DNA from: Escherichia phage A51.2
Direction: 5' to 3' (one strand)
Length of the DNA stretch: 64,000 bases
Sequence record: ON286973
Shown here piece by piece: positions 648-41,885 of the stretch. Position numbers and translations under genes: made by a program. The notes under the pieces are model-generated. The model was not told the DNA's origin and ran no database searches. It saw nothing but the letters and a program-made list of their open reading frames with translations. How positions within the stretch are numbered: position 1 is the stretch's first letter; every line of letters starts with the position of its first letter.

Positions 648-694
648 ATCTCCTGATTCTCCTTGTGTGGCAATTTTCTTTAAAATAGCAGGGA

Positions 695-1249
695 TTACTC
701 CCCGCTGTCAATAGCAAAACTCATTGCAATACGGTATGCCTCTTCTAATGGTAAGAGTCTCCCCCACACATCCCAACCGACATCAAGCTGCCTGCCAAAC
801 AACTGTTGTGTGGTTCCGTGAGCATGACCGAACAGTTGGACTGATCCGTGAGGCTTTCTGTTCCACTTTGCAAATTGGTAATGGCTCATACAGATCAAAT
901 TCTTGTTGTGGCGAAGCTCGTAATAATCTACAACCTCATGACCGAACTCTTTCATAATTCTGACAGTCGTCCTTGTGTCATGGTTGCCACGAACAAGAAT
1001 AATATGTCCGTTCAACATATTTAGAATATCTGGAAGTAAGTTGTTGATATTCTTATCATTAGTGCACGCAATATCTCCCAAGTGGAACACAGTGTCTGCA
1101 GGTGACACAACAGAGTTCCACTCGGCGATGATTCCCGCATTCATACTGTCAAGATTGTGATCATACTGAGATCTGTGTTTTTGACATGAATCGAACTCCA
1201 TGACCCGCTGGTGGAGAAAGTGTGTGTCGCTTGTTACAAAGTATTTCAT
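695..1249 (-). CDS. Calcineurin-like metallophosphoesterase (Ser/Thr phosphatase / polynucleotide 3'-phosphatase-like)
   Basis: Motifs MKYFVTSDTHF (D-x-H), HLGDI (GDxxD-like), VRGNHD (GNH[DE]); start refined to ATG at 1249, 8 nt after the upstream gene's stop. Confidence 0.8.
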   Translation of the reverse strand: MKYFVTSDTHFLHQRVMEFDSCQKHRSQYDHNLDSMNAGIIAEWNSVVSPADTVFHLGDIACTNDKNINNLLPDILNMLNGHIILVRGNHDTRTTVRIMKEFGHEVVDYYELRHNKNLICMSHYQFAKWNRKPHGSVQLFGHAHGTTQQLFGRQLDVGWDVWGRLLPLEEAYRIAMSFAIDSGE

Positions 1250-1256
1250 ACATTCC

Positions 1257-1664
1257 TCATTTAAGTTTAATGCAGTTTTTAAGTTGGCGTTCCATACGAT
1301 CCACAACCTCGTCTGAAGCATGAATGCTTTTATTACCGTGGCGGTTTTCAACCACGATTACGGTATAACTATACCCATAACTGATTGCCATGTCAATATA
1401 TTTTTGCACATATTTTTCTTTTGTAAACGTATTACTTACCACGATACGGTCGTATCCCATACGCATCATATCTTCTACGTTATCTTTGCACCATTTTGCT
1501 GCAAGTGTGACTTTACTTGCATCCCAGTTGTAATTTCCATCATCGTCGTACCAGAACATGTCGTTCTCAAAATGTGGATACAGACCCTCTAAAGATAGCG
1601 CATTTGCCAGTGTTGATTTGCCAGACCCTGGTAGACCACGCACGATATATAGCATTTTAGACAT
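1257..1664 (-). CDS. P-loop polynucleotide 5'-kinase-like protein (T4 Pnk kinase-domain-like)
   Basis: Walker A GLPGSGKST near the N-terminus, then IVVSNTF resembling the T4 Pnk kinase core; start refined to ATG at 1664 preceded by GGAGGG. Confidence 0.6.
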   Translation of the reverse strand: MSKMLYIVRGLPGSGKSTLANALSLEGLYPHFENDMFWYDDDGNYNWDASKVTLAAKWCKDNVEDMMRMGYDRIVVSNTFTKEKYVQKYIDMAISYGYSYTVIVVENRHGNKSIHASDEVVDRMERQLKNCIKLK

Positions 1665-1724
1665 AGTGACCCTCCGTTTTAATTTCAACGATAGTATACC
1701 TAACTGTTTTGTTAATTTCAAGTG

Positions 1725-1730
1725 TTGACA
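1725..1730 (+). promoter_or_regulatory. TTGACA -35-like hexamer in the divergent intergenic region between the minus kinase gene and the plus ligase gene
   Basis: Read directly; the -10 element is weak, so the promoter call is tentative. Confidence 0.3.
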
Positions 1731-1764
1731 CTAGGTTATTTGTGTGGCAGGATAGACTGACAAA

Positions 1765-2700
1765 ATGACAAATGAGGAACGTATGATGAAGTATTTTAAT
1801 GCAGACGACCTAGTTGACAAAGGTCTTGTAACCAGTAGGTATTACCCAGATCTCGGGTTAAAGATCTATAAATATGCTAGAAAAGTATTTTACAACAATT
1901 TATGGCATTTGTCCCCTCGTTTACTGGAGTGCCGAGGCATTGTTGTAGGTAATGAAGGAAATGTTGTGGCATGGCCCTTCACAAAAGTGTTTAACTTGGG
2001 AGAAAACTCCACCAACCTGCCTGACAATAAGCTTGTGACTGCGGTAGAGAAAAAGAACGGATTCCTTGGTGTGGTATCATCTCATAAAGGTGACCTATTG
2101 TTCTCAACAACCGGGTCTCTTGATTCTCCATATTGTAACCTTGCAAAGGAAACCATCCAAGAGCAATGTGGTAATTTAGATCTTATCAAGAAGGTTATGG
2201 GCAATGAAAACATGACATTCATGTTTGAAATTTGTCACCCTTCAGATCCGCATATTGTTCAAGAAGACCATGGCGCATATTTGATAGGTTGCAGATATAA
2301 TGATTCTGGAATAATGCTACCAGAAGCAGCTTTAGATGGGATTGCCAAATACCTTGGTGCAAAACGTCCTCACACTGTGCGTGAAATCCCGTTCAGCTAT
2401 GCAAAAGAATTAGCCGCAGAAACAAGGGGCGAAGGGTATATGATCCGTAAGCCTTACTACCCTTATGACCTGCAGCTGAAGATCAAGTCTCCATACTACC
2501 TGGCACGGAAGGCCGTAATGAGGGGTAAAGCTTGGAAGATTTGGGATGATGATATCTTTAAACGTGTTGACGAAGAGTTTTACGGCATGGTAAACTTCAT
2601 TCGTAACAATTACACAGAAGATGTGTGGAACTGCCTCCTGGAGCAGGAACGCCGTGAGATACTTGATTACTATTTCCACAACGAGAACTATATGCAATGA
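1765..2700 (+). CDS. Putative RNA ligase / nucleotidyltransferase (K-x-[DN]-G motif I)
   Basis: 311-aa ORF with VEKKNGFLG resembling the covalent nucleotidyltransferase lysine motif; divergent from the kinase/phosphoesterase pair. Confidence 0.45.
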   Translation: MTNEERMMKYFNADDLVDKGLVTSRYYPDLGLKIYKYARKVFYNNLWHLSPRLLECRGIVVGNEGNVVAWPFTKVFNLGENSTNLPDNKLVTAVEKKNGFLGVVSSHKGDLLFSTTGSLDSPYCNLAKETIQEQCGNLDLIKKVMGNENMTFMFEICHPSDPHIVQEDHGAYLIGCRYNDSGIMLPEAALDGIAKYLGAKRPHTVREIPFSYAKELAAETRGEGYMIRKPYYPYDLQLKIKSPYYLARKAVMRGKAWKIWDDDIFKRVDEEFYGMVNFIRNNYTEDVWNCLLEQERREILDYYFHNENYMQ

Positions 2701-3047
2701 AGAAGTTGATTGTGTGGCTGGATGACTTGAGAGATCCGTCAAATTATGGGCTCCCAGACGCTATTTGGCTAAAGAATTCCTCCGAGTTTATAGATTTTAT
2801 TAACGATAGGGGAAAGCTCTACAGACGCGTTTCTGAGTGGCACATGGACAACGACCTTGGAGAGGTGTTCGAAGGGTACGATTGCCTATCTATGTTGGAG
2901 GAAAAATTTGTATTTGGTAAGCCCCCTGTAGTTGACAACGTGAAGATTTTCGTGCATACTTCTAACCCATCAGCGGCTCGTAAATTCATGCTTGCAGCTG
3001 ACTCGTTTAAAAAGTTTGGAATAGAGATTAAACAAAACATCTACTGA
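2697..3047 (+). CDS. Hypothetical protein
   Basis: 116-aa ORF overlapping the upstream stop (ATGA); sits immediately upstream of the Sir2-like gene. Confidence 0.45.
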   Translation: MKKLIVWLDDLRDPSNYGLPDAIWLKNSSEFIDFINDRGKLYRRVSEWHMDNDLGEVFEGYDCLSMLEEKFVFGKPPVVDNVKIFVHTSNPSAARKFMLAADSFKKFGIEIKQNIY

Positions 3048-3055
3048 GGACACTT

Positions 3056-3817
3056 ATGCGACGACTGATTATTATCTCCGGTGCTGGTTTGAGCGCTGAA
3101 TCTGGTATTCCCACTTTCCGATCTGGTAGCACTGCAATGTGGGAGAATTTCAGCATCGATGAGGTGTGCAACATCCACACCTTTGCCAAGAACTACTACA
3201 AGGTGCATGACTTTTACAATGCACGTCGTGTAGCTCTAGGCGGTGTTGAGCCTAACCTTGCACATCTTCGGATCGCTGAGTGGTATTCCCGCTGGTCTGG
3301 TCGTGTGATCAACCTTACCACCAATGTAGATGATTTGCTGGAGCGTGCGGGTGTAAAACATGAAGATATTTTACATGTTCACGGGTATTTGCCAGAAATA
3401 GTCTATGAGGACGATGAAGGAAGTGACGTCATTAAGGACATTGGATACTCTGAGGTAGATGCAGGAAAGTATACCTGGGTTAAACCTAATGTGGTGTTCT
3501 TCGGAGAAGTAGCTCCGAAGTATACAGACATGTATGACCTGTTGACTTCTCTTACAAGCAATGATATGGTTATCCTTGTAGGGTGTTCCAACACAGTTAT
3601 CAATTTTAACTGGGAGCTATTCCCTGCCTGCAATAAGGGAACCAAACTACTGATCGTTAATAAATACGACTCACAGCATCTAGAGGAGAATGGCATTTCA
3701 CGTAGTGATATTTACCAGTATGAGGATCGCGGCATCCCAGTTTGGTTTAACGGTGCGGTTGATGCCTTCTCTGATAAAACATTCATTGAGACCGTAGAAA
3801 ACTTTATGGAACTTTAA
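3056..3817 (+). CDS. Sir2-family (sirtuin-like) NAD-dependent protein
   Basis: N-terminal Rossmann motif GAGLSAESGIPTFR matches the canonical sirtuin GAG(I/V)SxxSGIPxFR; HG dipeptide at LHVHG; no Zn-ribbon cysteines. Confidence 0.8.
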   Translation: MRRLIIISGAGLSAESGIPTFRSGSTAMWENFSIDEVCNIHTFAKNYYKVHDFYNARRVALGGVEPNLAHLRIAEWYSRWSGRVINLTTNVDDLLERAGVKHEDILHVHGYLPEIVYEDDEGSDVIKDIGYSEVDAGKYTWVKPNVVFFGEVAPKYTDMYDLLTSLTSNDMVILVGCSNTVINFNWELFPACNKGTKLLIVNKYDSQHLEENGISRSDIYQYEDRGIPVWFNGAVDAFSDKTFIETVENFMEL

Positions 3818-3830
3818 AAGGAGACCTTTA

Positions 3831-4544
3831 ATGCTGAATACTAAATTAATTGACAACCTGGAAAAACTGTCCCAACCTGAAAACTACCTTTGGTCTGCCA
3901 ACTGGGTGGAAAACTGGAACCGTGTGGCAGCTAAAGTGAAAAAATCATACACACCGTTCGAATTACAGCTTAGCTTCATTGAGGAAGAGTTCAATGAAGT
4001 TTTGGAAGAGCTGGAAAAAGGGGATGGTGGAGATCACCTGCTAAAAGAGGCCTGCGATCTTCACGTTGTCACAAGTTATGCCGCTTATCTTGTTAATGAC
4101 AATCACGAAAAGTGGTCAAACCTGTTTGATAATCCACGAGGTCTTAAGTTCAAGATCGGTGAGTTCTATGATACACTGATCGCTGCGAAAAACACCTCTA
4201 AGCAAAGAGCATCCGCTTACCGCTTAGCAGAGTTGTCAACAGCTTTGCTGTTCCAGCTTCGCGGCGATGTGTGCGGGATGATGCGTAAGGTTATCAAATC
4301 GAATGACAGCAAGTTTGCACGGGTCAACCATCTACGGTATTCACACGGTGCCAGTGCAGATATGCCTGCTGAACAACTCATCGAGTTGGAGATTAAAGAT
4401 CTTGAGCGACGCTTTGATGGTCGATATGAAGGTTTTGTTGCTAAGGAAGAATTCTACAACGGTAATAAAGTTATCATATTCCTTGACAGTAAAGGTAAGA
4501 TCATGAAGCCTTCGAGCTTCAAGGATGTAACAGAGTATATTTAA
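3831..4544 (+). CDS. MazG-like nucleoside triphosphate pyrophosphohydrolase (putative)
   Basis: EEEFNEVLEELEKGD ... EACDL fits the MazG E-x-x-E ... E-x-x-D metal-binding pattern. Confidence 0.5.
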   Translation: MLNTKLIDNLEKLSQPENYLWSANWVENWNRVAAKVKKSYTPFELQLSFIEEEFNEVLEELEKGDGGDHLLKEACDLHVVTSYAAYLVNDNHEKWSNLFDNPRGLKFKIGEFYDTLIAAKNTSKQRASAYRLAELSTALLFQLRGDVCGMMRKVIKSNDSKFARVNHLRYSHGASADMPAEQLIELEIKDLERRFDGRYEGFVAKEEFYNGNKVIIFLDSKGKIMKPSSFKDVTEYI

Positions 4545-4550
4545 CAACAT

Positions 4551-4576
4551 AGCCGGGATTACCCGGCTTTACTTGT
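4551..4576 (+). terminator. Intrinsic terminator-like hairpin AGCCGGG-ATTA-CCCGGCT followed by TTTACTTGTTG
   Basis: Read directly, immediately after the stop at 4544. Confidence 0.5.
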
Positions 4577-4916: not shown

Positions 4917-5172
4917 TCTTGCTAAACCTGTAGAAGCACACCAGTTTGACGGAAGCTCTTCATCAGTATCTGATCTGCAACGGTGGATTGATACAGGTGT
5001 GTTTACATCGTCACCTGTTCGGACCAGAGATCTTCGCCGTATGTGTGAGCTTGTAGAGCCGTTTGGTAACCTAGTCTTGCACCAGGGTGATTGGCTTGTT
5101 GATTTTATGGGGGACTGGTTGGTAATGAGTAAAGAAGAGATGTTTAAAATTTTTAAGGAAGAGGTAGAGTAA
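4903..5172 (+). CDS. Hypothetical protein
   Basis: 89-aa ORF, tightly packed with neighbours. Confidence 0.4.
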   Translation: MPLFNLAKPVEAHQFDGSSSSVSDLQRWIDTGVFTSSPVRTRDLRRMCELVEPFGNLVLHQGDWLVDFMGDWLVMSKEEMFKIFKEEVE

Positions 5173-6455
5173 TGCATCAAATCAAAACAACACTGTACGC
5201 ACTGAACAAAGATGGCAGCTACCAACAGTGGAAAGTATTCACGGATGGTGATAAGGTTATCGTAGAGTTTGGCAAGCTTGATGGTAAACTGCAATACAAA
5301 GAGACGATCTGCACACCTAAGAACGTGGGTCGCGCCAATGAGACTACAGCTGAGCAACAGGCCGAGCTGGAAGCGATCAGTAAGTGGGAAAAACAGGTCC
5401 GACTAGGGTACGTGGAGAGTATGGAAGATTGTGAGCAAGGTGTTGATCTTTTACCAATGTTAGTGCATGACTACCTGAAGCGTGGCAAGGCACTTAAATT
5501 ACCTTGCTGGATCTTGCGTAAGTTAGATGGCCTTCGTCTACTTGTTGTTTTCCAGAATGGTGAGCCTAAATTTATTTCCCGTGGTAATAAATCCTACCCT
5601 ATTCAAGGAAAGCTTCTGGAGCAACTTCGCTCTTTCCACCTAACCACCGGGATTAAACAGCTCGACGGAGAGCTCTATATTCATGGTCTGCCTCTGCAGA
5701 AAATAGTGTCTCTTGCTAAACGGTGGCGCACACAGGAAGAAATTCAGGCCGAGATCGATAAAGACTACGAGGCAGATAAAAAACGCCGTCAGGCTGCGAT
5801 TAAGGCAGGTTTAGCAACATACAAAAACTTCAACAAGATGGATATTCCTGTTGATGTTGATCCTGTTCGTGATGATTTGCGTTACGGAGGGTACTGCAGC
5901 TACGACCTAGAGTATCATATTTTCGATATCCCTAGCGATAAGGTGTGGTGGGATCCTGAAACAGAGTCTGGTCGCTGTAAGGATCTTATGGAGGCAAACG
6001 GTGCTATTACTTCTTTGATGCTTGATCATATTAAGGTTGTTGATGCAGAGCTTGCATATACGGTTGATCGGTGCGAAGAGTCTGTTGGTATATTTATGTC
6101 TGAAGGATATGAAGGTACCATTATGCGTAACTTCTGCGGTAAATATGAGTATGGTCAGCGAACATCTGAAGCATTGAAATGGAAAAAGTTCAACGACGCA
6201 GAGGTGAAAGTTATTGACGTTGAGAAAGATAAGAATGATGAAGGTGTTCTTATCTGTGTTGACAAGGAAGGTGTTGTTGTTAAAATGAAGATGAAAGGCA
6301 CGCACGAGGAGCGTAGCTATGACAGGATGCAGGAAATGATCGGCAAGTTTGTCACCTTCAAATATCAAGCAAGGACAGAAGACAACAACTACCAATTCCC
6401 TGTCGGTATCTGCGTCCGAAATGTTAACCCAGACACTTGGGAGGTTCTGGAATGA
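5172..6455 (+). CDS. ATP-dependent DNA ligase
   Basis: Motif I K-x-D-G-x-R present as RKLDGLR; size (427 aa) fits phage ATP-dependent ligases. Confidence 0.7.
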   Translation: MHQIKTTLYALNKDGSYQQWKVFTDGDKVIVEFGKLDGKLQYKETICTPKNVGRANETTAEQQAELEAISKWEKQVRLGYVESMEDCEQGVDLLPMLVHDYLKRGKALKLPCWILRKLDGLRLLVVFQNGEPKFISRGNKSYPIQGKLLEQLRSFHLTTGIKQLDGELYIHGLPLQKIVSLAKRWRTQEEIQAEIDKDYEADKKRRQAAIKAGLATYKNFNKMDIPVDVDPVRDDLRYGGYCSYDLEYHIFDIPSDKVWWDPETESGRCKDLMEANGAITSLMLDHIKVVDAELAYTVDRCEESVGIFMSEGYEGTIMRNFCGKYEYGQRTSEALKWKKFNDAEVKVIDVEKDKNDEGVLICVDKEGVVVKMKMKGTHEERSYDRMQEMIGKFVTFKYQARTEDNNYQFPVGICVRNVNPDTWEVLE

Positions 6456-41588: not shown

Positions 41589-41885
41589 GCCATGCCATTC
41601 GTTTGCATGAAAACAATTAACAAGATAACAATCGACAAGTTAATAATCTTTCGCTGGCTATGCCAGGTGACTAGGTCACCCCTTCGGGCGTTCCTATGAC
41701 ATAATATAAAAGCAGGGCAACTATTAGCAGATCTATAGTTGCCTTGCTTGTTATGTCATGATTAACTAAATACAAGGCAACTATGATCTGATTAATAGTT
41801 TGCAGACAAACTATCACGGGGGTGATGGTTACTGCTTTTATATTATGTCGCGACTCCGTCGCGCCATGCCATTCGTTTGCATAGT
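41589..41885. repeat. Composite repeat: 20-bp direct repeats GCCATGCCATTCGTTTGCAT (41589 and 41865) flanking nested inverted repeats (CATAATATAAAAGCAG/CTGCTTTTATATTATG; GGCAACTAT/ATAGTTGCC; GGTGAC-TAG-GTCACC; CGCGAC/GTCGCG)
   Basis: Read directly. Confidence 0.7.

What the first reader, a model, noticed from the sequence alone, without database searches (positions are those of the whole stretch)
695..2700. Split three-gene module resembling an RNA (tRNA) repair system: phosphoesterase, polynucleotide kinase, ligase-like enzyme
A calcineurin-like metallophosphoesterase (695..1249) and a P-loop polynucleotide-kinase-like protein (1257..1664) are adjacent on the minus strand, and a K-x-N-G nucleotidyltransferase (1765..2700) is divergently transcribed from the shared 100-bp intergenic region. 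Kinase, 2',3'-phosphatase and ligase together are the activities needed to heal and seal tRNA cut by host anticodon nucleases (T4 Pnk/Rnl1 versus PrrC). The combination of a metallophosphoesterase rather than a HAD phosphatase with a kinase resembles bacterial Pnkp, here split into separate genes. This suggests an anti-defense RNA repair system of unusual architecture.
Basis: partly seen in the sequence, partly recalled or inferred. Interest (0 to 1): 0.7.

Follow-up and report, generated by a model that had tools for sequence, protein, structure and literature searches.

The report
Phage RNA heal-and-seal repair gene cluster
This coliphage carries adjacent genes for a phosphoesterase, a small RNA-end kinase and an RNA ligase that most likely mend RNA cut by bacterial defences; the genes are real, but they are already annotated and were already predicted to do this in the literature.

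Summary
The window is Escherichia phage JohannBauhin (Bas53, an rV5-like Vequintavirus), matched at 100% identity. All three genes exist at the stated coordinates. GenBank already names them "putative phosphoresterase", "polynucleotide kinase" and "RNA ligase". The ligase has every Rnl1 catalytic motif, including the lysine that is adenylylated. The 135-aa kinase is closest in fold to the Clostridium Pnkp and T4 Pnk kinases. The phosphoesterase keeps all metal ligands, but it is of the uncharacterised Aquifex aq_1665 type, not the lambda-phosphatase type found in bacterial Pnkp. The module is larger than reported: ligase, cREC, Sir2 and MazG form a tight operon (1783-4544). Iyer et al. 2022 described this same neighbourhood in phage V5 as a predicted NAD-using RNA-repair system. 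New here: across 53 ligase lineages, the kinase lies within 3 kb in 46, the phosphoesterase in 46, and both in 40. Kinase-ligase and phosphoesterase-kinase fusion proteins exist. The divergent layout occurs only in rV5-like phages. There is no biochemistry. The Bas54 orthologs are dispensable on K-12. Verdict: the feature is real, the RNA-repair reading is well supported, "split Pnkp" holds only by analogy, and it is not novel.

The parts
695..1249 (-). Calcineurin-like metallophosphoesterase, 184 aa, aq_1665 subfamily (bas53_0213). Proposed healer of the 3' end (2',3'-cyclic phosphate or 3'-phosphate).
   Evidence: Pfam Metallophos_2 1.2e-6 and Metallophos 3.9e-6. PHROG 547 'phosphoesterase' 1.3e-51. 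The family profile matches only Aquifex aq_1665 (1xm7) strongly, at 3e-23. Metal-ligand motifs D8-x-H10, G58-D59, G88-N89-H90, H123 and G141-H142-x-H144 are invariant or nearly so in 33 homologs.
1257..1664 (-). Stand-alone minimal P-loop polynucleotide 5'-OH kinase, 135 aa (bas53_0212).
   Evidence: Pfam AAA_33 3.5e-10. PHROG 2071 1.3e-54 and PHROG 505 'polynucleotide kinase' 3.6e-10. Invariant RGxPGSGKST, D35, SNT and ENRHG. AF2 model pLDDT 88. Best folds are the C. thermocellum Pnkp kinase (TMq 0.74-0.78), T4 Pnk (0.73-0.78) and Pnkp1 (0.73). GGAGG lies 7 nt before the ATG at 1664.
1665..1782 (.). Divergent intergenic region between the healing pair and the ligase operon.
   Evidence: Promoter-like TTGAAA-17-TATACT on the minus strand at 1721..1693. 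TTGACA at 1725-1730 on the plus strand, but no acceptable -10 at 16-18 nt. GAGGA at 1774-1778.
1783..2700 (+). Rnl1-type ATP-dependent RNA ligase, 305 aa (bas53_0211). An alternative start at 1765 gives 311 aa.
   Evidence: Pfam RNA_lig_T4_1 1.1e-14. PHROG 562 2.8e-66. Invariant K90/N92/G93, E149, E217/G218 and K233/K235. The profile matches only T4 Rnl1 in the PDB (3e-13), with motifs I, III, IV and V aligned. AF2 pLDDT 92.9. Best folds are T4 Rnl1, Rnl3 and Trl1-LIG.
2697..3047 (+). cREC (cyclic-phosphate-processing receiver-like) protein, 116 aa (bas53_0210). Its start overlaps the ligase stop.
   Evidence: Pfam PF20274 cREC_REC 1.3e-14. PHROG 1479. Function only predicted in the literature (PMC7824862, PMC9503650).
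3056..3817 (+). Class III (CobB-like) sirtuin without the zinc-binding cysteines, 253 aa (bas53_0209).
   Evidence: Pfam SIR2 5.5e-27. Best PDB match is E. coli CobB 1s5p, 4e-21. The catalytic HVHG and TNVDD are kept, and the CobB zinc cysteines align to non-cysteine residues.
3831..4544 (+). MazG-like nucleotide pyrophosphohydrolase, 237 aa (bas53_0208). Last gene of the plus-strand operon.
   Evidence: PHROG 671 'nucleotide pyrophosphohydrolase' 9e-22. No Pfam hit. Named as a component of this neighbourhood by Iyer et al. 2022.
4551..4568 (+). Terminator-like GC-rich hairpin that closes the ligase-cREC-Sir2-MazG operon.
   Evidence: 7-bp stem with 6 G-C pairs, AGCCGGGATTACCCGGCT followed by TTACTTGTTG.

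Best explanation
This is a phage RNA end-healing and sealing system with the same logic as T4 Pnkp plus Rnl1, built partly from non-orthologous parts. [quoted passage not shown] The 135-aa kinase phosphorylates the 5'-OH. The aq_1665-type metallophosphoesterase opens and removes the cyclic or 3'-phosphate to give a 3'-OH. The Rnl1-type ligase is adenylylated on K90 and seals the nick. This triad is the conserved core in many phage lineages. In rV5-like phages the kinase-phosphoesterase pair has been inverted, so it is transcribed divergently from the ligase. The ligase operon has also gained cREC, a zinc-less sirtuin and MazG. Iyer et al. proposed that these handle 2'-phosphate or ADP-ribose-cyclic-phosphate by-products. 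Shown here: the family assignments, the catalytic residues, the conserved linkage and the gene fusions. Inferred: every enzymatic activity, the RNA substrate (tRNA is the leading candidate) and the anti-defence role.
For: Ligase: all Rnl1 motifs are invariant and align to T4 Rnl1 K99, E159, E227/G228 and K240/K242. Its fold is closest to T4 Rnl1, Rnl3 and Trl1-LIG.

Kinase: its fold is closest to the C. thermocellum Pnkp and T4 Pnk kinases. Nucleotide and sugar kinases score clearly lower, at TMq 0.6 or below. The top PDB sequence hit is RazKIN, a proven stand-alone RNA 5'-OH kinase of Mucorales tRNA splicing. The general-base Asp (D35) is invariant.

Phosphoesterase: the full binuclear-metal signature is conserved.

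Linkage: in 53 ligase lineages the kinase is within 3 kb in 46, the phosphoesterase in 46, and both in 40.

Fusions: 10-13 loci encode kinase-ligase fusion ORFs of 421-432 aa. P0305 and P0341 are phosphoesterase-kinase fusions, and P0305 sits directly beside an RNA_lig_T4_1 gene. PHROG 8238 is a 737-aa profile matched by both our kinase and our ligase.

The same kinase-phosphoesterase cassette, with overlapping genes, sits near an Rnl2-type ligase in unrelated freshwater phage contigs.

The literature independently predicts RNA repair for this neighbourhood in phage V5 (PMC9503650).

The Bas54 orthologs are non-essential on E. coli K-12, as expected for an accessory system (preprint 10.1101/2025.11.20.689424, supplementary table).
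Against: No member of this kinase, phosphoesterase or short-ligase family has been assayed, as far as the searched literature shows. The nearest solved relative of the phosphoesterase (aq_1665) has no known function, so its role at the RNA 3' end is inferred from context alone. The kinase has an aromatic residue where T4 Pnk has the acceptor-binding Arg38. The ligase lacks a detectable counterpart of the T4 Rnl1 C-terminal tRNA-binding domain: the alignment stops at T4 residue 250 and the protein is about 70 aa shorter. tRNA specificity is therefore open. Transposon disruptions of the Bas54 orthologs were not depleted on the two uropathogenic isolates tested, so no host defence has been matched to the module. 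An ATP-dependent DNA ligase lies within 10 kb in 47 of 88 loci, so some DNA-end healing cannot be excluded.
Confidence: 0.72

Rival explanations
1. The whole six-gene cluster runs a fungal Trl1/Tpt1-like pathway rather than a T4-like one. cREC opens the cyclic phosphate to a 2'-phosphate and the kinase phosphorylates the 5' end. The ligase seals, leaving a 2'-phosphate junction. The sirtuin uses NAD+ to remove it, acting as a Tpt1/KptA analogue. The phosphoesterase and MazG then clear ADP-ribose-1'',2''-cyclic phosphate. This is the proposal of Iyer et al. 2022.
For: cREC, Sir2 and MazG are packed tightly in one operon with the ligase: a 4-nt overlap, then 8-nt and 13-nt gaps, then a terminator. 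The sirtuin is an atypical zinc-less form with intact catalytic residues. The ligase fold also matches Trl1-LIG, and Pfam PF09511 covers both. The best kinase sequence hit is a Trl1-pathway kinase. Proposed in PMC9503650.
Against: cREC and Sir2 occur in only 15 of 88 ligase loci each and are separable: phi92-like phages have cREC without Sir2, and L016/L018/L023 have Sir2 without cREC. The triad evidently works without them in most lineages. By sequence, the ligase profile matches only T4 Rnl1 in the PDB, not Trl1-LIG. No sirtuin is known to act on RNA 2'-phosphate.
Confidence: 0.15
2. The kinase and phosphoesterase heal DNA ends (5'-OH, 3'-phosphate) for the nearby ATP-dependent DNA ligase, protecting or repairing the phage genome. 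The RNA ligase would be functionally separate.
For: T4 Pnk and MciKIN phosphorylate both DNA and RNA (PMC11571804). A DNA ligase lies at 5172-6455 and within 10 kb of the RNA ligase in 47 of 88 loci. A weak NCBIfam hit links the phosphoesterase to the ligase-associated DNA-damage endonuclease PdeM (2.6e-4, far below the cut-off).
Against: The kinase is fused to the RNA ligase, not to the DNA ligase, in 10-13 loci. The phosphoesterase-kinase fusion abuts an RNA_lig_T4_1 gene. The median distance from the RNA ligase is about 220 bp for both enzymes. In the freshwater contigs the cassette is accompanied by an Rnl2-type RNA ligase.
Confidence: 0.07
3. The phosphoesterase, and possibly the kinase, act on small nucleotide molecules such as cyclic-nucleotide immune signals or ADP-ribose derivatives. 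They would be part of an NAD+/nucleotide counter-defence island, not enzymes that act on RNA ends.
For: In other lineages the triad sits beside PRS- and NAMPT-like genes: 41 and 45 of 88 loci within 10 kb. These resemble the NARP1 NAD+-reconstitution genes Adps and Namat (preprint 10.1101/2024.02.11.579819). Here it sits beside Sir2, cREC and MazG. Weak PDB relatives of the phosphoesterase include cyclic-nucleotide and glycerophosphodiester phosphodiesterases such as Rv0805 and GpdQ.
Against: The fusions to the RNA ligase and the polynucleotide-kinase fold point to polynucleotide ends. The characterised NARP1-associated phosphatase is a Macro-domain protein, not this phosphoesterase. No PRS or NAMPT gene is present in this 64-kb window.
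Confidence: 0.05

Closest known systems
Sirtuin-linked phage RNA-repair neighbourhood, type 2 of Iyer, Burroughs, Anantharaman & Aravind 2022 (Viruses 14:1977; prototypes Escherichia phage V5 and Proteus phage Mydo)
   Same: It has the identical gene set: T4-like tRNA ligase, cREC, nucleotide kinase, sirtuin, MazG pyrophosphatase and calcineurin-like phosphoesterase. The window phage is in the same genus as phage V5.
   Different: Nothing structural differs. That paper centres the system on the sirtuin and calls the phosphoesterase 'occasional'. My survey finds phosphoesterase-ligase-kinase to be the conserved core and the sirtuin and cREC to be the lineage-restricted parts.
Phage T4 Pnkp (PseT) + Rnl1 (RnlA), which reverse PrrC cleavage of tRNA-Lys
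   Same: The same three activities are needed: 5' kinase, 3' end phosphatase and an Rnl1-family ligase. The ligase is homologous and has the same catalytic motifs. The kinase fold matches the T4 Pnk kinase domain.
   Different: The phosphatase is a binuclear metallophosphoesterase rather than a HAD DxDxT domain. The kinase and phosphatase are separate 135-aa and 184-aa proteins. The ligase is about 70 aa shorter, without a detectable T4-type C-terminal domain, and falls far below the RnlA equivalog cut-off (38.7 vs 242 bits). No cognate host nuclease is known.
Bacterial Pnkp-Hen1 RNA repair (Clostridium thermocellum Pnkp)
   Same: It pairs a P-loop polynucleotide kinase with a metallophosphoesterase 3' healer. 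The C. thermocellum Pnkp kinase domain is the best structural match to the phage kinase.
   Different: The phage phosphoesterase is aq_1665-type, not lambda-phosphatase-type. The ligase is Rnl1-type. The proteins are not fused here, and where fused elsewhere the order is phosphoesterase then kinase. There is no Hen1 partner.
Split tRNA-splicing apparatus of Mucorales fungi (stand-alone LIG and stand-alone KIN; Ghosh et al. RNA 2024)
   Same: Stand-alone small polynucleotide kinases work with a stand-alone Rnl1/Trl1-type ligase. RazKIN is the best PDB sequence hit of the phage kinase family.
   Different: The fungal pathway uses a 2H cyclic phosphodiesterase and Tpt1, with GTP-specific kinases. 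Sequence similarity is weak (E 1e-6), mostly at the P-loop and one further segment.

Membership tests
Rnl1-type ATP-dependent RNA ligase (Pfam PF09511, T4 RnlA) | Motif I lysine (KxxG), the site of covalent adenylylation | tested here: met
   K90-K-N92-G93 is invariant in 33 homologs. It aligns to K99 in the T4 Rnl1 'TKEDG' motif.
Rnl1-type ATP-dependent RNA ligase (Pfam PF09511, T4 RnlA) | Nucleotidyltransferase motifs III, IV and V | tested here: met
   FE149IC aligns to FEFV, E217-G218 to EGY, and K233-I-K235 to KIKS of T4 Rnl1. All are invariant.
Rnl1-type ATP-dependent RNA ligase (Pfam PF09511, T4 RnlA) | Score above the curated family thresholds | tested here: inconclusive
   The Pfam gathering score is passed (55.3 vs 28.3 bits). 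The NCBIfam RnlA equivalog TIGR02308 is not (38.7 vs 242.25 bits). It is a family member but not an RnlA equivalog.
Rnl1-type ATP-dependent RNA ligase (Pfam PF09511, T4 RnlA) | C-terminal all-helical tRNA-specificity domain of T4 Rnl1 (about residues 255-374) | tested here: not met
   The sequence alignment ends at T4 residue 250. The PHROG 562 match covers only 8-322 of 377 profile positions. The model has only a roughly 65-residue helical tail.
Rnl1-type ATP-dependent RNA ligase (Pfam PF09511, T4 RnlA) | RNA 3'-OH/5'-PO4 sealing activity | not testable with these tools
   Needs purified protein.
Polynucleotide 5'-OH kinase clade (T4 Pnk, C. thermocellum Pnkp kinase, Trl1/Mucorales KIN) | P-loop GxxGxGK(S/T) | tested here: met
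   RGLPGSGKST, invariant R9, G10, G13, G15, K16 and T18.
Polynucleotide 5'-OH kinase clade (T4 Pnk, C. thermocellum Pnkp kinase, Trl1/Mucorales KIN) | General-base aspartate after strand 2 (T4 D35, MciKIN D36) | tested here: met
   D35 is invariant. It aligns to the first D of 'NRDDF' in Pnkp1 4xrp.
Polynucleotide 5'-OH kinase clade (T4 Pnk, C. thermocellum Pnkp kinase, Trl1/Mucorales KIN) | Fold closer to polynucleotide kinases than to nucleotide or sugar kinases | tested here: met
   C. thermocellum Pnkp kinase TMq 0.74-0.78, T4 Pnk 0.73-0.78, Pnkp1 0.73. UMP-CMP, gluconate, shikimate and adenylate kinases score 0.47-0.61.
Polynucleotide 5'-OH kinase clade (T4 Pnk, C. thermocellum Pnkp kinase, Trl1/Mucorales KIN) | Acceptor-phosphate-binding arginine three residues after the general base (T4 R38) | tested here: not met
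   This position is W38 here and F, W, Y or H in homologs.
Polynucleotide 5'-OH kinase clade (T4 Pnk, C. thermocellum Pnkp kinase, Trl1/Mucorales KIN) | Lid arginine contacting the NTP phosphates (T4 R126) | tested here: inconclusive
   R108 in the ENRHG motif is invariant and is a candidate. I made no residue-level structural superposition, and model confidence drops after residue 105.
Bacterial Pnkp (Pnkp-Hen1 system) | Kinase, phosphoesterase and ligase domains in one polypeptide | tested here: not met
   There are three separate genes on two strands.
Bacterial Pnkp (Pnkp-Hen1 system) | Lambda-phosphatase-type metallophosphoesterase domain | tested here: not met
   The family profile matches aq_1665 at 3e-23. 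Even at E up to 10 it gives no match to the Pnkp phosphatase or to lambda phosphatase.
Bacterial Pnkp (Pnkp-Hen1 system) | Hen1 methyltransferase partner gene | tested here: not met
   None of the eight flanking proteins scanned has a methyltransferase domain.
T4 Pnkp (PseT) | C-terminal HAD (DxDxT) 3'-phosphatase domain fused to the kinase | tested here: not met
   The kinase is 135 aa and consists of the AAA_33 domain alone.
Calcineurin-like metallophosphoesterase superfamily | DxH / GD / GNH(D/E) / H / GHxH metal-binding signature | tested here: met
   D8-T-H10, G58-D59, G88-N89-H90-D, H123 and G141-H142-A-H144. All are invariant or nearly so in 33 homologs.
Iyer et al. 2022 sirtuin-linked phage RNA-repair neighbourhood (type 2) | Co-located sirtuin, T4-like tRNA ligase, cREC, nucleotide kinase and MazG, with or without a calcineurin-like phosphoesterase | tested here: met
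   All six are found within 695-4544. The neighbourhood as described is quoted.
Fungal/plant Trl1-Tpt1 pathway | 2H cyclic phosphodiesterase and Tpt1/KptA 2'-phosphotransferase | tested here: not met
   Neither domain is among the module's proteins. Analogues (cREC, Sir2) are only hypothesised.

The most novel reading that the evidence does not exclude
The zinc-less sirtuin and cREC encoded in the ligase operon could make this a phage version of the eukaryotic 2'-phosphate tRNA-ligation pathway. A sirtuin would replace Tpt1 in NAD+-dependent removal of an RNA 2'-phosphate, which would be a new substrate class for sirtuins. Separately, the aq_1665-type metallophosphoesterase could be a previously unrecognised and very widespread class of RNA 3'-end healing enzyme. 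The first idea was already put forward by Iyer et al. 2022, so only its demonstration would be new.
Probability: 0.15. Interest if true: 0.75.

Novelty: already known. Interest (0 to 1): 0.28.

Why it matters
tRNA and RNA cleavage is a common bacterial anti-phage strategy (PrrC, RloC, Cas13a, retron and PARIS effectors). T4 Pnkp/Rnl1 is still the only phage repair pathway shown experimentally. The phosphoesterase-ligase-kinase triad seen here occurs in hundreds of sequenced phages: 664 phage records carry this ligase family. They include therapeutic candidates such as Vequintavirinae and Pakpunavirus. The kinase and phosphoesterase families each have thousands of metagenomic relatives. Showing that the triad repairs RNA, and against which defences, would explain part of the broad host range of these phages. 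It would also give a function to the uncharacterised aq_1665 phosphoesterase family. For this window, though, the finding adds nothing that the GenBank annotation and the 2022 comparative-genomics paper did not already state.

Tried and rejected
1. 'Split bacterial Pnkp'. Rejected as homology: the phosphoesterase subfamily differs, the ligase is Rnl1-type and there is no Hen1.

2. A tRNA-splicing role. GenBank annotates a 97-nt tRNA-Lys 2.7 kb beyond the window start. Rfam alignment shows a normal UUU anticodon loop and a 26-nt insertion in the variable region, not an intron. Rejected.

3. Alternative P-loop families for the kinase (thymidylate, shikimate, adenylate, gluconate kinase, zeta toxin). 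These give only P-loop-level or lower-TM matches.

4. A sigma-70 promoter for the ligase operon. TTGACA at 1725-1730 has no acceptable -10 at 16-18 nt. Left open.

5. NAD+-reconstitution genes (PRS/NAMPT-like) that flank the triad in other phages. None is present in the 64-kb window.

6. tRNA genes and Rfam families in the window. None found.

7. Single-sequence PDB searches for the ligase and the kinase gave nothing significant. Family profiles were needed.

8. My first iterative kinase HMM was contaminated by kinase-ligase fusion proteins. I recomputed the counts with clean profiles from A1 and A2.

9. Literature searches found no biochemical or genetic test of this module.
Full report
**Identity of the window.** Bases 600-2800 match Escherichia phage JohannBauhin (Bas53, MZ501083.1; Vequintavirinae, genus Vequintavirus, rV5-like) at 100% identity. 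A further 117 phage records cover at least 80% of that stretch at 90% identity or more. The window is the reverse complement of the record. Window position equals L001 position minus 3476.

**The observation.** The three ORFs are real and are annotated CDSs:
- bas53_0213, 'putative phosphoresterase', 695-1249(-)
- bas53_0212, 'polynucleotide kinase', 1257-1664(-)
- bas53_0211, 'RNA ligase', 1783-2700(+)

All three are listed. A GAGGA at 1774-1778 favours ATG 1783 or 1786. The kinase ATG at 1664 is preceded by GGAGG. A TTGAAA-17-TATACT promoter-like site at 1721..1693 faces the kinase. Pfam places the proteins in Metallophos/Metallophos_2, AAA_33 and RNA_lig_T4_1, each above its gathering score. 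PHROGs gives much stronger family matches, from 1e-51 to 3e-66.

**The ligase.**
- There are 550 homologs of about 300 aa in the protein collection.
- In 33 diverse members, K90-x-N92-G93, E149, E217-G218 and K233-x-K235 are invariant.
- A profile of these sequences matches only T4 Rnl1 among all PDB sequences (3e-13). Motifs I, III, IV and V align to T4 K99, E159, E227/G228 and K240/K242.
- The AlphaFold model has pLDDT 92.9. It is closest to T4 Rnl1, archaeal Rnl3 and fungal Trl1-LIG.
- The protein is not an RnlA equivalog: 38.7 bits against a cut-off of 242.
- It has no detectable counterpart of the T4 C-terminal tRNA-binding domain.

**The kinase.**
- It belongs to a very large family of roughly 130-aa stand-alone proteins.
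- Invariant features are RGxPGSGKST, D35, SNT and ENRHG.
- In the PDB profile search, the matches that span the protein are Pnkp1, T4 Pnk, the C. thermocellum Pnkp kinase domain and PSTK. The top-scoring hit is RazKIN, the stand-alone RNA 5'-OH kinase of Mucorales tRNA splicing (PMC11571804).
- Adenylate, shikimate and gluconate kinases match only around the P-loop.
- The model (pLDDT 88) superposes best on the C. thermocellum Pnkp kinase (TMq 0.74-0.78) and T4 Pnk (0.73-0.78). Nucleotide and sugar kinases reach 0.47-0.61.
- One departure: the residue equivalent to T4 Arg38 is aromatic.

**The phosphoesterase.**
- All binuclear-metal ligands are conserved.
- The only strong solved relative is the uncharacterised Aquifex protein aq_1665 (1xm7): 1.7e-10 with the single sequence and 3e-23 with the family profile.
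- Even at E up to 10 there is no match to the lambda-phosphatase-type domain of bacterial Pnkp.
- The family has at least 7,555 clusters, again capped.
- Its proposed action on RNA 2',3'-cyclic or 3'-phosphate ends rests on context, not on a characterised homolog.

**The module is larger than reported.** Four genes follow one another tightly on the plus strand:
- The ligase stop overlaps the start of a cREC_REC protein (2697-3047; Pfam 1.3e-14).
- After 8 nt comes a sirtuin (3056-3817).
- After 13 nt comes a MazG-like pyrophosphohydrolase (3831-4544; PHROG 671).
- A GC-rich hairpin at 4551-4568 closes the unit.

The sirtuin is CobB-like (1s5p, 4e-21). It keeps the catalytic His and the N/D residues, but non-cysteine residues stand where CobB has its zinc cysteines.

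[quoted passage not shown] They propose NAD+-dependent RNA repair with the sirtuin acting like KptA/Tpt1. The same group defined cREC in 2021 (PMC7824862). A 2025 paper on the Pakpunavirus phage Adele also proposes tRNA repair by the kinase and ligase. It notes that the kinase lacks a 3'-phosphatase domain but does not link the neighbouring phosphoesterase (PMC12846349). The finding is therefore already annotated and already interpreted. I found no biochemical or genetic test of it.

**What the survey adds.** I fetched six GenBank phages and 80 IMG/VR loci anchored on the ligase. I searched their ORFs with profiles of each component.
- After de-replication to 53 ligase clusters at 80% identity, the kinase lies within 3 kb in 46, the phosphoesterase in 46, and both in 40.
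- Before de-replication (88 ligase-anchored loci), the median distance from the ligase is about 220 bp for each.
- The usual layouts are colinear: phosphoesterase-ligase-kinase or kinase-ligase-phosphoesterase.
- The opposite-strand layout occurs in a single cluster, the rV5-like phages. The 'split, divergent' design is thus a local inversion.
- cREC and Sir2 are each present in only 15 of 88 loci and are separable. The triad, not the sirtuin, is the conserved core.
- Ten to thirteen loci encode direct kinase-ligase fusion proteins of 421-432 aa, for example L051 2209-3474.
- P0305 and P0341 are phosphoesterase-kinase fusions, and P0305 sits directly downstream of an RNA_lig_T4_1 gene.
- In unrelated freshwater and jumbo-phage contigs, the kinase and phosphoesterase genes overlap and lie about 2 kb from an Rnl2-type ligase.

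These fusions and the swapping of ligase type are the strongest evidence that the three proteins act in one pathway on polynucleotide ends.

**Mechanism.**
- Shown: the family membership, the catalytic residues, the operon structure, the conserved linkage and the fusions.
- Inferred: the kinase phosphorylates 5'-OH RNA, the phosphoesterase converts 2',3'-cyclic or 3'-phosphate ends to 3'-OH, the ligase seals through a K90-AMP intermediate, the substrates are tRNAs or other RNAs cut by host defence nucleases, and cREC, Sir2 and MazG are accessory.
- Since most lineages have the triad without cREC or Sir2, I favour a T4-like 3'-OH/5'-PO4 route (0.72) over the Trl1/Tpt1-like 2'-phosphate route (0.15).
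- DNA-end healing for the neighbouring DNA ligase (0.07) and small-molecule processing (0.05) are less likely because the fusions join the kinase to the RNA ligase.

**Experimental context.**
- In the HIDEN-SEQ preprint (10.1101/2025.11.20.689424), five of the six Bas54 orthologs (bas54_0206, 0207 and 0209-0211) are classed non-essential on E. coli K-12. The cREC gene (bas54_0208) is classed 'intermediate'.
- None of the six is depleted on the uropathogenic isolates CFE303 or CFE311. Log2 fold changes are +0.13 to +0.43 and q is 0.75 or higher for the rows where it was shown.
- In the same study, the T4-type PseT ortholog of Bas37 was depleted in one comparison in the supplementary table (log2 fold change -1.9, q = 0). 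The legend flags it among the most significant effects on a clinical isolate.
- This fits an accessory, host-dependent function, but it does not identify a target.

**Verdict.** The RNA-repair reading is well supported computationally. The Pnkp comparison is an analogy only. The architecture is common rather than unusual. The system is already known as an annotation and as a published prediction. Interest is low to moderate. What remains open is experimental: the activity of the aq_1665-type phosphoesterase, the ligase's end requirements, the sirtuin's role and the host nuclease that is countered.

Noticed in passing
L001:669-765 (-), i.e. MZ501083.1 134838-134934, about 2.7 kb beyond the window start: A phage tRNA-Lys(UUU) has a 26-nt insertion in the variable region, giving a class-II-like long arm (Rfam tRNA 35.5 bits). 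ARAGORN miscalls it as having a 4-base anticodon. It sits in a cluster of seven tRNAs (Pro, Met/Ile-CAU, Thr, Lys, Ser, Tyr, Arg) next to the repair module. tRNA-Lys(UUU) is a classic target of anticodon nucleases, so an odd-shaped copy could be a decoy or a resistant replacement.
   Followed up: partly
window:40070-42540: An ORF-poor stretch of about 2.4 kb lies at the point where GC skew changes sign. It carries four or more copies of ACTGTTTACG (41256, 41537, 41552, 42039) and inverted repeats (41698-41715 / 41832-41849). It probably corresponds to the roughly 2-kb intergenic region of Bas54 in which HIDEN-SEQ recovered no transposon insertions. It is a candidate origin or control region.
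   Followed up: partly
L051:2209-3474, L056:577-1875, L066:9527-10825 and about 10 further IMG/VR loci; L092:6001-7068 (P0305): Natural fusion proteins occur: kinase-Rnl1-like ligase (421-432 aa) and phosphoesterase-kinase (353-355 aa). The latter sits directly after an RNA_lig_T4_1 gene. These would be convenient single-polypeptide targets for biochemistry.
   Followed up: partly
L007, L008, L009, L010, L011 and 41-45 of 88 ligase loci (within 10 kb of the ligase): In Pakpunavirus, Otagovirus, Thalassavirus, Mydovirus and phi92-like phages, the repair triad lies next to genes annotated ribose-phosphate pyrophosphokinase and nicotinamide phosphoribosyltransferase. These resemble the NARP1 NAD+-reconstitution pair (Adps/Namat). 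An HD phosphohydrolase gene is also nearby in 21 loci. Together they suggest an anti-defence island. None of these genes is in this 64-kb window.
   Followed up: partly
window:3056-3817: The phage sirtuin is CobB-like and keeps its catalytic residues, but non-cysteine residues stand where CobB has its zinc-binding cysteines.
   Followed up: partly
GenBank MG065635, MG065653, MG065655, MG065656, MG065661 and others (hits H16, H17, H22, H25, H39): About 18-23 records named 'Campylobacter phage C..' with host Campylobacter jejuni are 98-99% identical to this E. coli phage region. Others match phi92-like coliphages. The host assignment of these records looks doubtful.
   Followed up: no
window:297-647 (-): An HTH_36/DUF6945 'putative transcriptional regulator' lies just downstream of the phosphoesterase on the same strand. 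A promoter-like site of its own (TTGACA-18-TATTTT with TG, 711..682) overlaps the phosphoesterase 3' end. Homologs were found only in the rV5-like loci. Whether it regulates the module is unknown.
   Followed up: no
window:5172-6455: The ATP-dependent DNA ligase (427 aa) matches the Pfam adenylation domain only over its last 55 profile positions, plus the OB domain. The N-terminal 280 residues are divergent. A DNA ligase lies within 10 kb of the RNA ligase in 47 of 88 loci.
   Followed up: no
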